Counted from the stretch's first letter, positions 5,141 to 61,445 are shown. The stretch is DNA of 64,000 nt from Eledone cirrhosa (GCA_964016885.1 OZ024752.1:2542001-2606000), one strand, 5' to 3'. Translations and numbers: made by a program. The notes: generated by a model not told the origin, from the letters alone.

Positions 5141-5550
5141 TAGTGAAATAAAATAACAAGGATGATTGTTTACTCCTTCATTACTTTTATTGGTTGGTGA
5201 CGCGAGTTTCACCACTGATCAACTCAAGGTTCGATCTGTATCGATCTATCCCGACTGTGTAATCAGCGGCTCGTCAGATCTGTTATAATTTTTCCATTAC
5301 CATTATAAGGGGTCTGACGAGCTCCGGATTATATGGTCAGGATAGATTCATACAGATCGATCCACGAGCTGATCAGTGGCGAAACGCGCTCACCAACCAA
5401 TAAAAGTAATGAAGGAGTAACCAATCGTCCTTGTTATTTTATTTCACTATAATACACTCTGTCTAGCTCTAGATCTCGACACTGAAGTGAACCTAAACAT
5501 CGAGTGCTCACCCAGGTGAACATACAGCAACTCCAAGGTACACTCCCTGG
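5141..5550. mobile_element. fold-back HHR element between (TA)n tracts (family 2)
   Basis: inverted arms ~5141-5280 and 5312-5449 plus 100 bp tail; HHRs at 5196-5280 (-) and 5311-5394 (+): GGU-CUGACGA-GC..GC-GAAA-CGCGC-UC/ACC. Confidence 0.8.
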
Positions 5551-6123
5551 ATATATATATATATATGAGTGTGTGTGTGGGCTGGGGGTGGGATACGTAT
5601 GGGTGTGTGTGTGTGTCAATGTGTGCGTGTGTGTGTGTGAGTGTGTGTGTGTGTGTTTGTGTGTCTGTGTCTGTGTATATATATATAGCTAACATATAAT
5701 ATAGCATATTAGACAAGAAATTCATGAGAGATAGAAAAACATATATGGAAACTTATGAGGTCATTTCCCGTTTATAAGAAACTAAACACATGTAATTAAT
5801 TTCAAATTGTATTATCTTACAAAGCCTTTAAAATTGAGAGGGTGTCATGTACACATAAGTAGGAGTAAATCTATATTCTTAAGAGATAATATCAATTTAA
5901 CATCGTGTATTGAGTATTGTTATATATTACATACAGGTCATGAATAAAAGGATTTTAATTTGAGAACCATGTGGAATTTATAGTAGTATTCGCATGCATG
6001 TTTAGTTATTTCCTTCCACGAGGCATTTACTTTCATTCTTTTAAATTTATTCTTATGAGTTTCCAGGAAATTAAACGGTTTACAAATTATGTTGGTATTT
6101 TCGATAATAATATTCTCTTAAAT

Positions 6124-7095
6124 CACAGGTTCTCAACGCATTTCGGCCAAAAATGCACCTGGAAATAACAAAATGCCCCACCGCCACATCCTATTTTTCC
6201 ATTTATAAAATATACTACTGATTTTGACATCAGTAGATTAATAAAAAAAATATTAACAATATTCCAAAGATACCATTGCAGGCAGCTGAGAGTATAAATA
6301 GATTCCTTGAAAGGAAGTATATAAATTTAAAAAAAAGGAACATAAATGTACTTTTTTTATTAATAAGGACCAGTTGAATTTGTTATATTCCCACAAGGCG
6401 ATACCAGCTACTTTGAACATTTATACAACAGCAACTCTCTGTATCCAAAGAGTGCCCTTATTTGGAAGAAAGTGGCAATTACAAATGAAAAGATTTTTAG
6501 TTTGCTTCGTGACAATAGCATATCCAAGTTTTCGGATAAATCACTTACTTTAACTTTGGCCGCATTTCAATGTAGCAGGAGATCTCTACATTTTAGCGGT
6601 TGCGAGCCTTACTGTGCAGCCTGGAAACATAGCCAAACCCCATCTTGACTATGTATGAGCTTGGAAAAGGCAGAGCAAATTTCTTAAACACTGCATGTAC
6701 GAATGAAAATCGACGCTGAATTTCCTCTTGCATCCACCACAAAAAGGGTTCACCTGTTGATCATGTCATCGGTTTGAAGTTCAATGAATTCTTACTGAAA
6801 TTTGGCGTCCAACTCGTCGGCGTTAGCTATAAAGGGATCGCCTATCCACATTCGGATGTCCATCGCAAAAGGTTGACAAACCGTTCTCTCATGTTGCTTT
6901 GTAGAACTGACATATTTCTGTCTGGATGCTCATTCAAATGCATTCACACTGCATGTCTCAGGTACAAATAAGGTTTATAAAACTTACCAGAGTAAAGAAC
7001 CTTCGAGCGCCACCACTGCTCCAAACGCCCCCCCCCCCCTAACGCCCTTTGCACCAAAACGCACCGCTTGAGCTATGAAACGTTGAGAACCTTTG
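6124..7095 (-). mobile_element. non-autonomous hAT (Charlie/Buster-type) DNA transposon
   Basis: TIRs CACAGGTTCTCAACG (6124-6138) and CGTTGAGAACCTTTG (7081-7095); 8-bp TSD TCTTAAAT / TCGTAAAT. Confidence 0.88.
6540..6930 (-). pseudogene. hAT transposase C-terminal dimerisation domain remnant
   Basis: NMRERFVNLL..MDIRMWIGDPF..FQ*EFIELQTDD..LWWMQEEIQRRF..KKFALPFPSSYIVKMGFGYVSRLHSKARNR* with frameshifts. Confidence 0.85.
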
Positions 7096-7354
7096 TCGTA
7101 AATGGATCGTCCATAGCATAATAGATTTGTTGATCACAGCCTGCTTTCGGTTATTCATTTATCAGAAAACAGAGAGAGGCATATATACACACACACACAC
7201 ACACACACCCACACACACAAATACACACAGACACACACACACATATATATATATATATATATATATATATATATATATATATATATATATATATATATAT
7301 ATATATATAATATAAAACGAAAAAATCAGTGATGCATCTGGACCCAGTTTATTG

Positions 7355-7444
7355 TGTGTCACAATTGTTTCGCCGGCAGATAGCTCGAGACAGGATCATT
7401 GCATGGATCTGTCTGATTCTAGATCACCAGGTTCTTCGGACACA
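7355..7444 (-). ncRNA. degenerate hammerhead (U4C core, cleavage triplet mutated)
   Basis: UGUGU-CCGAAGA-long helix II-GAAA-CAAUUG-UG/ACACA, then AAUAAA and (TA)n. Confidence 0.55.
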
Positions 7445-59125: not shown

Positions 59126-60008
59126 TAAGGTAAACACATCTTAAATAGAGCTTGGTGCAGATATTACGTTAAGAGAACATTCAGACAGAGTGGATGTGGA
59201 AAAGTTAAAGATGTTTACCTCGTTGGGTGTTGAATTTCTAGTTCCAGAAATTTTTATTTTCATTCACAGGAAAGTGCACACACATACATATATGTTTATA
59301 TACAGGTATATATATTAATGAACTTATATTTCACGTTAAACACAGAGGGACATCAGTAAATAATAATAACGATATTTAGATATGAAAATATAGATGTACA
59401 TATCTCTATTTCGGGGGTTATTGTATTTTATGTGTGTGTGTAGCAACACGTGGTTGTGTGTGATACTGCTGACTCTGGCAGAGCCCAAGAAAACACATGT
59501 ATCCTTCAAGACACGTCGTTCGTGGTGGTAGAGTAGTGTTGGTGAAGAGGGATTAGGGTGGTGGTAGAGGGGTTTGGGTGAAGTGTGTTTGAATCGACGT
59601 GAAGAAACAAATGCAATATGTCATATGGAAATGTGACTGAGGATGTACTTCAATTTCTGTTCTATAGGAAATGACAGTTGTATCTAGTATCATTCAAGGA
59701 AATAGTTTTTTTAACTTACTGACAGAAAGGCGTGTTGTTTATCATTCCATATGACGAGGTCTTATCTTTCACAAGTAACAATTAATCAAATGAGTTCACA
59801 CAAATATATTAATATTTAACTGCTCATGTGTGTTCTTATTCTAGTATATATATATATATATATATATATATATATATATATATATATATATATATATATA
59901 GTAATAATAATAAATGTGAAGACTAAAATCCAAAGAGGGCTCGATAAGGATAAATATATATCAAATATATAAGAACCGTAGAGCAAATATATATATATAT
60001 ATATATAA

Positions 60009-60543
60009 TAAATCAGGAAAGAAGAGTGACACTGTTTGCTATACAAAAAAGGTTTTTAATCTCATTGCTGACAATTGTTTCTCTGAACTGGTAGGTCTAG
60101 AGATCGCTATCCGCTTATTTTCACGTTATTCGATCGTCAATACAAAGTTATAACCAGTCAGTTCATCGGAGCTTGCTAGAATGAAAAGAATATACTGGCC
60201 TGTTCACGCAATCTCCGATGAACTGACTGGTTATAACTTTGTATTGGCGATCGAGTAACGTGAAAATAAGTGGATAGCGATCTCTAGACCTACCAGTTCA
60301 GAGAAACAATTGTCAGCAATGAGATTAAAAACCTGTTTTGTATAGCAAACCGTGTCACTCTTCTTTCCTGATTAATTATTACTCCAAGTGTTTACAACAT
60401 AGGAATTACAGCGTACTCGCAGCATCACTATGGAAACGCCTGGTTGAGTCGAACTTAGCCAAGCAATGATATCATCCACTAGCCGGAGTACCGTAACTTG
60501 ACTACACCTAAGTGGACTAGATATAACAATAATTTGTTGCCCC
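60009..60543. mobile_element. fold-back HHR element (family 9) between (TA)n tracts
   Basis: ~160 bp arms 60010-60170 and 60213-60373 plus tail; HHR 60213-60317 (+) CU-CCGAUGA-a-CUGACUGGU..ACCAGUUCAG-a-GAAA-CAAUUG-UC/AG and its antisense twin. Confidence 0.82.
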
Positions 60544-60618
60544 GTATATATATATATATATATATATATATATATATATATATATATATATATATATATA
60601 TATATATATATATATATA

Positions 60619-61445
60619 GTTAAAAGAATAGAGGTGTAACACACAAGTAATTATATATTGGTAAACGGAATAGAAAATGCTGACAAATTGTTCACAGTTG
60701 AAAAATAGTTTAATTAGGAATAAAAGAGTATTAGTAATTGTAATGGTTAGTATTCAGTTTTGGTTTTAAGTTTTACCGGTTGCGCATTTCTAAATGCTTT
60801 TCAAAAATAATTTTGAGATAGAGCGTCCGTGTTGTTTGTTCTGATCAGAGCAAACAACATGGACGCTCTATATTCCCTGGGCATGGATTCATTGAAGCTC
60901 CGACACCTGGCAACTGACTTGGTAAACACCCATAAAATTGTTAACCATGTTGCCAACAACAACCCTGAGGACCTTTTTGATTTCCATGTGTCTAACACAC
61001 GTGGACATGCCCACAAAGTAAGAAAACAGCACAGTTCCCATGACTTTCGGAAATATTTTTTCACGCTCAGAGTTGCTGAAGCATGGAACAAACTACCTGC
61101 ATCAGTTGTTAGCTGTCGAGACACTGCATCCTTTAAGGCCTCCATGCTTCCCGAGATCCGCCAACACTACAGCTAACACATACACACATGTACTTCCCTG
61201 ACATTCGTGTATTATTCTATGTACTATATTGACGAGCTGTAGTGCACCTGAGCACTTTACACAATAATTTCATTATATATCTCAAAATTATTTTTGAAAA
61301 GCATTTAGAAATGCGCAACCGGTAAAACTTAAAACCAAAACTCAATACTAACCAATACAATTACTAATACTCTTTATTCCTAATTAAACTATTTTTCAAC
61401 TGTGAACAATTTGTTAGCATTTTCTTTTCCGTTTACCAATATATA
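60619..61445. mobile_element. fold-back HHR element (family 10) enclosing a LINE 3' end
   Basis: arms ~60653-60820 and ~61278-61445; HHR-like 61291-61327 UUU-UUGAAAA-GCAUUU(ag)AAAUGC-GCAA-CCGG-UA/AAA and antisense twin 60771-60807. Confidence 0.8.
60872..61275 (+). pseudogene. CR1/L2-type LINE ORF2 C-terminus and 3' UTR
   Basis: SLGMDSLKLRHLATDLVNTHKI..SNTRGHAHKVRKQHSSHDFRKYFFTLRVAEAWNKLPASVVSCRDTASFK (TRGH..FFxxRV..WNxLP motif). Confidence 0.9.

What the first reader, a model, noticed from the sequence alone, without database searches (positions are those of the whole stretch)
5141..61445. All fold-back elements share one polarity: antisense copy left, sense copy right, 3' ends at the (TA)n
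Seen in 5141-5550, 7742-9101, 12975-13313, 13328-15516, 22747-23112, 60009-60543 and 60619-61445: the HHR reads outward from the centre on both strands, and one arm carries an extra 35-170 bp unpaired tail. These are not DNA-transposon TIRs, because arms are unequal and internal to a longer unit. Known: PLE insertions often have an inverted 5' pLTR. Inference: both ends of a break in a (TA)n tract, possibly a cruciform, prime reverse transcription and the two cDNAs are joined head to head, or the cDNA folds back on itself.
Basis: partly seen in the sequence, partly recalled or inferred. Interest (0 to 1): 0.75.

Follow-up and report, generated by a model that had tools for sequence, protein, structure and literature searches.

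The report
Head-to-head Penelope insertions in (TA)n tracts
The window holds many hairpin-shaped inserts, each made of two ends of a Penelope-like jumping gene joined head to head inside TA repeats; this one-way arrangement is real but already published for these elements, and it likely arises because both broken DNA ends start a copy of the element's RNA.

Summary
All seven sites are inverted repeats whose hammerhead-type motifs read outward, with a 40-168 nt tail on one arm only. A window-wide scan found inverted repeats in 18 of 67 segments between (TA)n tracts (1 of 67 shuffled). The 14 that can be oriented (9 families) are all head-to-head; 4 cannot be oriented. A decayed Hydra-clade endonuclease lies at 50286-50790.

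The polarity is not new. PMC3846280 calls head-to-head the most frequent Penelope arrangement. PMC8557442 describes the inverted 5' copy, the one-sided tail and Hydra's (TA)n targeting. PMC4209133 notes opposite-strand ribozyme pairs. This scan's agents reached the same verdict on three other windows.

The mechanism is open. I favour priming at both (TA)n ends (about 0.5): one insert has non-overlapping arms, one has its spacer on the tail-less arm, and tails start at a TA-like run in 9 of 13 cases. Fold-back self-priming (0.3) and copying of whole palindromes (0.15) fit the conserved centres of family C/K better. Empty sites could not be seen, and a cruciform is not needed.

The parts
4473..5037 (.). 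Unit F: tail 4473-4536, arms 4537-4682 / 4884-5037; hammerhead motif in the spacer on the minus strand, so the tail arm is the longer one
   Evidence: (fold of 4668-4730 minus, z -1.2; motif found by eye)
5141..5550 (.). Unit A1: arms 5141-5289 / 5302-5449, spacer 12 nt, tail 5450-5550; cores at 5222 (-) and 5369 (+)
7668..9102 (.). Unit B: tail 7668-7742, arms 7743-8219 / 8651-9102, spacer 431 nt; canonical type I hammerheads at 7862-7799 (-) and 8983-9046 (+)
   Evidence: z -2.27 each
9597..9959 (.). Unit G: tail 9597-9638, arms 9639-9737 / 9861-9959 (99%); the 123 nt spacer carries a plus-strand hammerhead motif and belongs to the tail-less arm; 5 nt microhomology at 9729-9733
   Evidence: (z -2.44)
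10452..10630 (.). Unit H1: 98 nt palindrome, spacer 4 nt, tail 10552-10630
10642..10737 (.). Unit I1: 78 nt palindrome, spacer 6 nt, 18 nt extension on the right
12973..13312 (.). Unit C1: arms 12977-13106 / 13111-13240, tail to 13312; U3-A8-type cores at 13069 (-) and 13148 (+)
13328..15513 (.). Unit D: tail 13328-13435, arms 13436-14145 / 14825-15513, spacer 679 nt with the strand skew of the tail arm; cores at 13525 (-) and 15424 (+)
21638..21826 (.). Unit A2: antisense piece of the family A tail only (~47 nt) joined head to head to a tail-less sense body; the two arms do not overlap (the layout of L1 twin priming)
22748..23112 (.). Unit C2: tail 22748-22832, arms 22833-22970 / 22977-23112; cores at 22940 (-) and 23007 (+)
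24993..25650 (-). A3: single antisense family A copy with tail; its right boundary is approximate
31477..32808 (-). Unit L: head-to-tail dimer (89%), a hammerhead motif in each copy, 68 nt tail between the copies; a counter-type, not a fold-back
32828..32987 (.). Unit I2: 82 nt palindrome joined at a natural 6-7 nt inverted repeat; the 4 nt loop is in the orientation of the tail-less arm; tail 32910-32987
33588..34362 (-). Unit M: 248 nt direct repeats (99%) between (TA)n tracts, a partial tandem; strand set by eye from a hammerhead-like motif that folds no better than shuffles
47562..47801 (.). Unit H2: old (73%) head-to-head pair; full hammerhead core on the left, tail-bearing arm; left boundary approximate
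   Evidence: (sequence print)
47869..48151 (.). Unit C3: full tail arm, perfect 49 nt central palindrome 48058-48106, then 45 nt with no match elsewhere in the window
49304..51236 (.). Unit U1: family I-like antisense end (hammerhead 49405-49320) and, on the plus strand, a decayed endonuclease end with a core at 51151; two unlike PLE ends facing outward
50286..50790 (+). Decayed C-terminal GIY-YIG-type endonuclease with Hydra-clade motifs; broken by an in-frame stop and a change of frame near its end
51297..51965 (+). I3R: family I sense end with hammerhead 51783-51868 and tail
   Evidence: z -2.57
60008..60544 (.). Unit E: arms 60008-60176 / 60208-60376, spacer 31 nt, tail 60377-60544; orientation weakly supported
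60619..61438 (.). Unit K: family C relative, palindrome centred at 60844-60845, tail 60619-60658; right arm interrupted by a later ~400 nt insert (about 60874-61277)

Best explanation
These units are two 3' ends of short Penelope-like retroelements joined head to head between (TA)n tracts, with a tail on one arm only, and they likely form when both nicked strands of a (TA)n tract prime reverse transcription. Shown here: the arms, their outward polarity, family-fixed outer ends, variable centres, and a Hydra-type endonuclease remnant in the window. Inferred steps: (1) a Hydra-clade enzyme nicks both strands of a (TA)n tract, which reads the same on both strands. (2) One 3'-OH starts at the tail end of the RNA. 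The other starts 40-170 nt upstream at a short TA-like run, which marks where the tail begins. (3) Both cDNAs run toward the 5' end of the same or a sibling RNA. (4) Their ends are joined, often through a few matching bases. Both cDNAs reaching the same stop would give the near-perfect palindromes, unequal stops the long spacers, and an early stop inside the tail the non-overlapping unit A2. On this reading tail-to-tail fold-backs cannot form, because each 3' end is tied to the target.
For: Polarity: 14 of 14 oriented inverted units are head-to-head. Outer ends are shared within a family while centres differ in 4 of 4 families with two or more fold-back copies (A, C, H, I). A2 (21638-21826) has a tail-only arm and a tail-less arm with nothing to pair, so a hairpin alone cannot make it; this is the twin-priming layout described for L1 (PMC2837659 passages). 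In G the 123 nt spacer is continuous with the tail-less arm: it has a plus-strand hammerhead motif, the same strand skew as that arm (+0.32 vs +0.43; tail arm -0.42), and contigs from other copies span 9729-9859 and 9824-9911. A cDNA begun at the tail could not have folded back to make it. In I2 the loop likewise has the tail-less arm's orientation. An alternating A/T run of 4 nt or more touches the tail start in 9 of 13 hand-placed boundaries (mean 3.8 vs 1.6 at other positions of the same elements, P about 0.001). In vitro, a PLE protein nicks and extends both strands, starts at two RNA sites that bound the tail, and is predicted to be a dimer (PMC11167929). The endonuclease remnant has 1795 relatives at E<=0.001. 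Those aligned show CxCX5C, YIG without CCHH, CxxC and CxH, and two of the longest show an RT-type YRDDG motif upstream, matching the Hydra definition, which includes (TA)n targets (PMC8557442 section 11).
Against: Spacers of 12 nt or less in 8 of 13 units (A1, H1, I1, C1, C2, I2, C3, and K once its insert is set aside) are what a hairpin would leave; dual priming needs both cDNAs to stop together. The centres of C1, C2, C3 and K lie 33.5-42 nt from the core, and the C1 and C2 centres are short deletions of the C3 centre, which fits a palindromic donor. C3 has only 24 nt of a second arm, which fold-back or read-through copying explains more simply. A2 could be a later one-sided deletion, and the spacer of G could have been inverted later between its arms. 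Arms within C1, C2 and K share private variants, which fits one template or gene conversion under any model. In A1 only 1 of 5 informative sites joins the two arms, and arm identity (86.2%) is about equal to identity with A2 (84.9-85.5%), so it decides nothing. PMC11167929 found initiation at RNA sites not homologous to the cut DNA, unlike my step 2, and studied another clade. The TA-like run could instead be the element's own endonuclease site. No intact autonomous element is in the window, so the link between the short families and Hydra is by association. Two detector hits point inward: 9576 (+), score 11, at background level, and 34717 (-), score 14.5, in the ambiguous unit 34527-34760.
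Confidence: 0.5

Rival explanations
1. Self-priming fold-back: a cDNA (or an antisense RNA, as proposed in PMC3846280) folds back at a short inverted repeat and is copied into a long hairpin; the endonuclease then trims one arm at the internal TA-like site, leaving the tail on the other arm.
For: 8 of 13 spacers are 12 nt or less. I2 is joined at a natural 6-7 nt inverted repeat and G at a 5 nt match. Arms share private variants. PMC3846280 infers self-priming from palindromes at the junction, and PMC8557442 ascribes the tail to endonuclease-mediated resolution. If either arm can be trimmed, G and I2 are compatible.
Against: A2 has no complementary arms, and U1 and C3 end in unlike sequences. 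In the simple form, with the cDNA begun at the tail, the spacer must lie on the tail arm, which fails for G and I2. Loops of 123-679 nt are needed for B, D, F and G.
Confidence: 0.3
2. Once formed, a palindromic unit is transcribed through from a flank and copied whole by ordinary target-primed reverse transcription, with the donor's (TA)n flank pairing to the new target; the polarity is then inherited rather than made anew. This does not exclude the other models.
For: The centre position is conserved between families C and K, the C1 and C2 centres are deletions of the C3 centre, and C3 looks like a copy cut short 24 nt past the centre.
Against: Centres differ among copies in 4 of 4 multi-copy families. 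Single arms and head-to-tail repeats of similar elements occur. It does not explain how the first head-to-head unit arises.
Confidence: 0.15
3. Non-autonomous DNA transposons (Tc1/mariner-type MITEs, recalled as TA-targeting) with long terminal inverted repeats.
For: Long inverted arms with TA on both sides. Unit 30215-30377 has no (TA)n flank and no tail or ribozyme motif was found there, so it may be such an element.
Against: One arm is 40-168 nt longer in every unit but I1 (18 nt). The arms carry hammerhead motifs, the same sequences occur as single arms and tandems, and centres vary while ends are fixed.
Confidence: 0.02
4. Two independent insertions in one (TA)n tract, or inverted chimeras made during amplification or assembly.
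For: Tracts do collect several inserts side by side (H1/I1, C1/D, E/K).
Against: No (TA)n remains at any centre, arms differ by 1-27%, and outer ends are family-specific. Family G sequence is multi-copy in independent runs.
Confidence: 0.03

Closest known systems
Standard insertion unit of endonuclease-bearing Penelope-like elements: pseudo-LTR, adjacent inverted 5'-truncated copy, one-sided tail (PMC8557442 Fig. 2 legend and passages; PMC3846280)
   Same: Inverted copy joined at the 5' end, head-to-head as the usual arrangement, palindromes at the junction, tail on one end only, partial tandems alongside.
   Different: Here the units are mostly 100-2200 nt non-coding remnants. Tails are 40-168 nt against the 30-40 bp stated in those papers. 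Target-site duplications cannot be read inside (TA)n.
Hydra clade of PLEs (PMC8557442 section 11)
   Same: C-terminal endonuclease with CxCX5C linker, no CCHH, CxxC and CxH motifs; hammerheads; insertion into (TA)n.
   Different: Only one decayed endonuclease end is in the window. RT motifs (RWK, DKT) could not be tested, and the short families are tied to the clade by association only.
Opposite-strand pairs of minimal hammerheads 100-700 bp apart, and the U3-A8 core variant (PMC4209133 section 5)
   Same: Same spacing and strand layout; families C, D and K have the U3-A8-type core.
   Different: That section does not state whether the pairs face outward or inward, nor describe tails or targets.
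L1 twin priming and dual priming (PMC2837659 passages)
   Same: Two target-primed cDNAs joined at their far ends give an inverted insertion; unit A2 has this layout.
   Different: In L1 the two pieces do not overlap and the internal start varies. Here the internal start is fixed per family and the arms usually overlap into a palindrome.
Non-LTR retrozymes (bioRxiv 10.64898/2026.07.22.740005, parts 1-2)
   Same: Short non-autonomous hammerhead-bearing repeats argued to derive from PLE pseudo-LTRs; dimer L resembles them.
   Different: They are defined as head-to-tail tandems, not inverted pairs.

Membership tests
Penelope-like elements (endonuclease-bearing) | Type I hammerhead motif near the 3' end / in the pseudo-LTR | tested here: met
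   Script-found cores in A1, A2, B, C1-C3, D, I3, L; B and I3R fold at z -2.27 and -2.57. Rfam gathering scan found none. E, H and M are by eye only and fold no better than shuffles.
Penelope-like elements (endonuclease-bearing) | Inverted 5'-truncated copy adjacent to the 5' end (head to head) | tested here: met
   14 of 14 oriented units.
Penelope-like elements (endonuclease-bearing) | Tail on one end only | tested here: met
   One-sided extension in all 12 complete pairs aligned (F, A1, B, G, H1, I1, C1, D, C2, I2, E, K); 40-168 nt except I1 (18 nt); longer than the published 30-40 bp.
Penelope-like elements (endonuclease-bearing) | Partial tandems forming direct pseudo-LTRs | tested here: met
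   31477-32808 and 33588-34362; these are other families than the fold-backs.
Penelope-like elements (endonuclease-bearing) | Single ORF with telomerase-like RT plus GIY-YIG endonuclease in the same element | tested here: inconclusive
   No RT ORF among ORFs of 110 aa or more; only an endonuclease remnant in unit U1. Two long relatives carry a YRDDG motif upstream. Pfam named none of them.
Penelope-like elements (endonuclease-bearing) | Target-site duplication / empty site | not testable with these tools
   Insertions lie inside (TA)n; no whole genome is held; the read tool skips the repeats at both ends of G.
Hydra clade (for the remnant at 50286-50790) | CxCX5C linker, no CCHH inside GIY-YIG, CxxC and CxH near the end | tested here: met
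   Relatives' consensus has CNCRxxxxCPL, YIG, CxLC and CRH. The window copy is decayed at the linker and keeps YIG and one C of CxxC. Definition.
Hydra clade (for the remnant at 50286-50790) | RT motifs RWK and DKT; phylogenetic placement | not tested
   No RT in the window; no tree was built.
Hydra clade (for the short fold-back families) | 3' end shared with an autonomous Hydra element | not testable with these tools
   Needs the whole genome; the I-like and endonuclease-bearing ends of U1 align only weakly.
DNA transposon MITE | Equal terminal inverted repeats that define both ends | tested here: not met
   One end extends beyond the arm in 12 of 12 complete pairs.

The most novel reading that the evidence does not exclude
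Hydra-clade elements integrate by programmed twin priming: the second primer always lands on a short TA-like run that mimics the target and so defines the tail. Some short families (C/K) have gone further and spread as whole palindromic, two-ribozyme units with a conserved centre, a self-regenerating hairpin retroelement.
Probability: 0.25. Interest if true: 0.55.

Novelty: already known. Interest (0 to 1): 0.2.

Why it matters
The polarity rule itself adds nothing to print. The locus is useful as a dense natural sample: 15 head-to-head units cover 12.8% of 64 kb. How PLEs make inverted ends and tails is called unresolved in PMC8557442. Units such as A2, G and C3 show which genome-wide counts (spacer ownership, non-overlapping arms, shared centres) would separate dual priming from fold-back. 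Such units may also be mistaken for MITEs by repeat annotation (inference).

Tried and rejected
No whole genome is held, so the proposed genome-wide scan could not be run. The Rfam gathering scan found no family. Pfam gave no family for the endonuclease remnant or the insert in K, and for 6 relatives only one sub-threshold CDC27 hit. A word-based search for longer relatives of the remnant found none among 85 candidates; the HMMER search did find relatives. The run search listed no RNA holder. Laying 4 runs (at most 2 samples) on 9170-10260 did not show an empty site for G: the left flank is a very high-copy repeat, and the tool skips 9568-9606 and 9951-10056. One joint 9491-10181 with 22 letters on its short side, in three runs of one sample, does not end at the (TA)n tracts and was not counted. 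No strand-change joint inside G was among the 15 of 18 joints shown. My hammerhead detector is noisy below score 13 (2.7 hits per shuffled window at 11, 0.5 at 13) and missed A1, F, G, H, E, K and M. One fold (47684-47745) was misplaced and was redone. Folds for E, M, 51140, C1, H2 and A2 were no better than shuffles, as may be expected for minimal motifs that act as dimers, but they give no support. I first read 49304-51965 as one large inverted unit and rejected it: a (TA)n tract splits it, its arms are 78% alike with different ends, and the right part is 91% like I2. No inverted pair was found in segments 24183, 33184, 36692, 38178 or 51297. The atlas gave only unnamed eukaryotic clusters for the insert in K. 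The cruciform idea could not be tested. A look-up of relatives in this scan's own notes returned nothing.
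Full report
Setting. The window is 33% G+C animal-type DNA dense in microsatellites. No whole genome is held and the run search gives only a coded organism. A cephalopod host is my guess from recall and nothing below rests on it.

Observation. After masking simple repeats, self-BLAST and arm alignment confirm inverted arms at all seven sites, with corrected limits: A1 5141-5550, B 7668-9102, C1 12973-13312, D 13328-15513, C2 22748-23112, E 60008-60544, K 60619-61438. 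Arms are 86.5-97.5% alike and one arm carries an extra 40-168 nt. K is a palindrome centred at 60844-60845 whose right arm was interrupted by a ~400 nt insert with a 2-4 nt AT duplication. That the insert resembles the 3' end of a CR1-type LINE is recalled; Pfam and the atlas did not name it.

Polarity. Rfam finds nothing at its thresholds. A motif scan found hammerhead cores reading outward on both arms of A1, C1, C2 and D, along with three hits outside any unit. A scored detector found both arms of B at score 17, where shuffles give 0.17 hits per window at 14 or more. It also gave hits outside units and two inward hits: 9576 at background score, and 34717 at 14.5. The TTGAAAA core of C, D and K is the U3-A8 covariant reported for PLE hammerheads (PMC4209133; PMC3088659). 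K is oriented by homology to C. E is oriented by eye only. Fourteen can be oriented (F, A1, B, G, H1, I1, C1, D, C2, I2, H2, C3, E, K) and all are head-to-head: 6 by script-found core, 3 by homology, 4 by eye plus fold, 1 weakly. Four cannot be oriented. One old pair at 34527-34760 is ambiguous: its hairpin-plus-GAAAC geometry reads outward by eye, but the detector's hit there reads inward. Against a 50:50 null P is 6e-5, or 0.002 counted as 9 families. Head-to-tail repeats (31477-32808, 33588-34362) and single arms also occur.

What they are. The features are those of Penelope-like element ends. A remnant at 50286-50790 has 1795 relatives at E<=0.001. Ten were aligned: their consensus shows a CxCX5C linker, YIG without CCHH, CxLC and CRH, and two of the longest carry YRDDG upstream. 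This matches the Hydra clade, whose families have hammerheads and almost all insert into (TA)n (PMC8557442 section 11). The short families cannot be tied to that clade by sequence here.

What is known. PMC8557442 (passages; section 11) describes the inverted 5'-truncated copy at the 5' end and a 30-40 bp tail often at one end only, and calls the mechanism undefined. PMC3846280 (parts 1-4 of 5) reports palindromes at the inverted junction, calls head-to-head the most frequently observed arrangement as opposed to tail-to-tail, and proposes self-priming. PMC4209133 (passages and section 5) notes hammerhead pairs 100-700 bp apart on opposite strands. PMC11167929 (parts 1-2 of 4) shows a PLE protein cutting and extending both strands of AT-rich DNA and starting at two RNA sites that bound the tail. 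PMC8969392 (passages) lists inverted pLTRs and 3' extensions as routine. I also saw bioRxiv 10.64898/2026.07.22.740005 (parts 1-2 of 5), PMC2837659 (passages) and PMC13282606 (passages; nothing on palindromes). Three earlier notes of this scan reached the same verdict on other DNA; they are leads, not support. I did not find dual or twin priming proposed for PLE head-to-head units in searches, judged from listings and the papers named. Evgen'ev and Arkhipova 2005 and Arkhipova 2006 were not seen, and no supplements were read; those of PMC8557442 may give Hydra tail lengths.

Mechanism, for dual priming. Outer ends are fixed per family and centres differ in all 4 families with two or more fold-back copies. 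A2 joins a tail-only antisense piece to a tail-less sense body with no overlap, the layout of L1 twin priming. In G the spacer goes with the tail-less arm, by ribozyme strand, skew and contigs of other copies spanning 9729-9859 and 9824-9911. Four contigs in one run leave the window's sequence left of 9729, which places a 5 nt match at the junction. In F, D and H2 the spacer goes with the tail arm, so either arm can be the longer. The tail begins at an alternating A/T run of 4 nt or more in 9 of 13 boundaries. I placed these by hand (11 fold-backs and 2 tandem junctions; I1, H2, C3 and A2 left out; C1, C2 and K are kin); mean 3.8 against 1.6, P about 0.001.

Mechanism, against. Eight of 13 spacers are 12 nt or less. 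The centres of C1, C2, C3 and K lie 33.5-42 nt from the core, and those of C1 and C2 are 5 and 17 nt deletions of the C3 centre. C3 keeps only 24 nt of a second arm. These points favour a hairpin or a palindromic donor. A2 could be a later deletion and G's spacer a later inversion. Shared variants between arms (C1, C2, K) fit every model, and A1 is uninformative. The TA-like run could be a cutting site rather than a priming site, and PMC11167929 found no homology between primer and RNA start in another clade. I put dual priming at 0.5, fold-back with trimming at 0.3 and whole-unit copying at 0.15; the three are not exclusive. A cruciform is not needed.

Not done. The genome-wide count and the empty-site test. 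The one read-laying run could not show an empty site, because the flank is a high-copy repeat and the tool skips the (TA)n ends.

Verdict. The feature is real, more general in the window than first noted, and already known as the usual PLE insertion unit. Confidence that these are head-to-head PLE ends is about 0.95. Interest 0.2; the residual value is as material for the open question of how PLEs integrate.

Noticed in passing
window 50286-50790 (+), in unit 49304-51236: Decayed Hydra-clade endonuclease end with its own hammerhead-like core (51151), joined outward-facing to an unlike family I-type end: a possible head-to-head unit made from two different elements.
   Followed up: partly
window 60874-61277: ~400 nt insert in the right arm of K, with a short reading frame that recalls the C-terminus of a CR1-type LINE (recalled motif; unnamed in Pfam and atlas) and a 2-4 nt AT duplication.
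   Followed up: partly
window 8622-8650, 9498-9526, 18398-18421: The spacer of B ends in 29 nt that match a very high-copy repeat also present at 9170-9576 and near 18400; either captured during insertion or inserted later.
   Followed up: partly
window 9170-9576: Very high-copy repeat (summed contig depth about one million) between two (TA)n tracts; in reads it is often preceded by (TACA)n.
   Followed up: no
window 23300-23579, 31477-32808: Family L: ~700 nt units with a hammerhead whose stem II loop is about 90 nt long; a head-to-tail dimer and an older single copy; retrozyme-like.
   Followed up: partly
window 30215-30377: 163 nt palindrome (88%) with no (TA)n flank and no tail or ribozyme motif seen; possibly a MITE.
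   Followed up: no
window 34527-34760: Old inverted pair next to a (TA)n tract whose orientation is ambiguous; the only candidate for an inward-facing pair.
   Followed up: partly
window 46820-47221 and 59901-59986: Family J: an old inverted pair whose left end lies in an (AAT)n tract, and an 86 nt single piece between two (TA)n tracts; not oriented.
   Followed up: partly
window 10452-10737, 12973-15513, 60008-61438: Different families sit tail to end in one (TA)n tract, separated by 11-74 nt of TA: tracts act as repeated landing sites.
   Followed up: no
window 48107-48151: 45 nt at the right end of C3 with no match elsewhere in the window; filler or the end of another family.
   Followed up: partly
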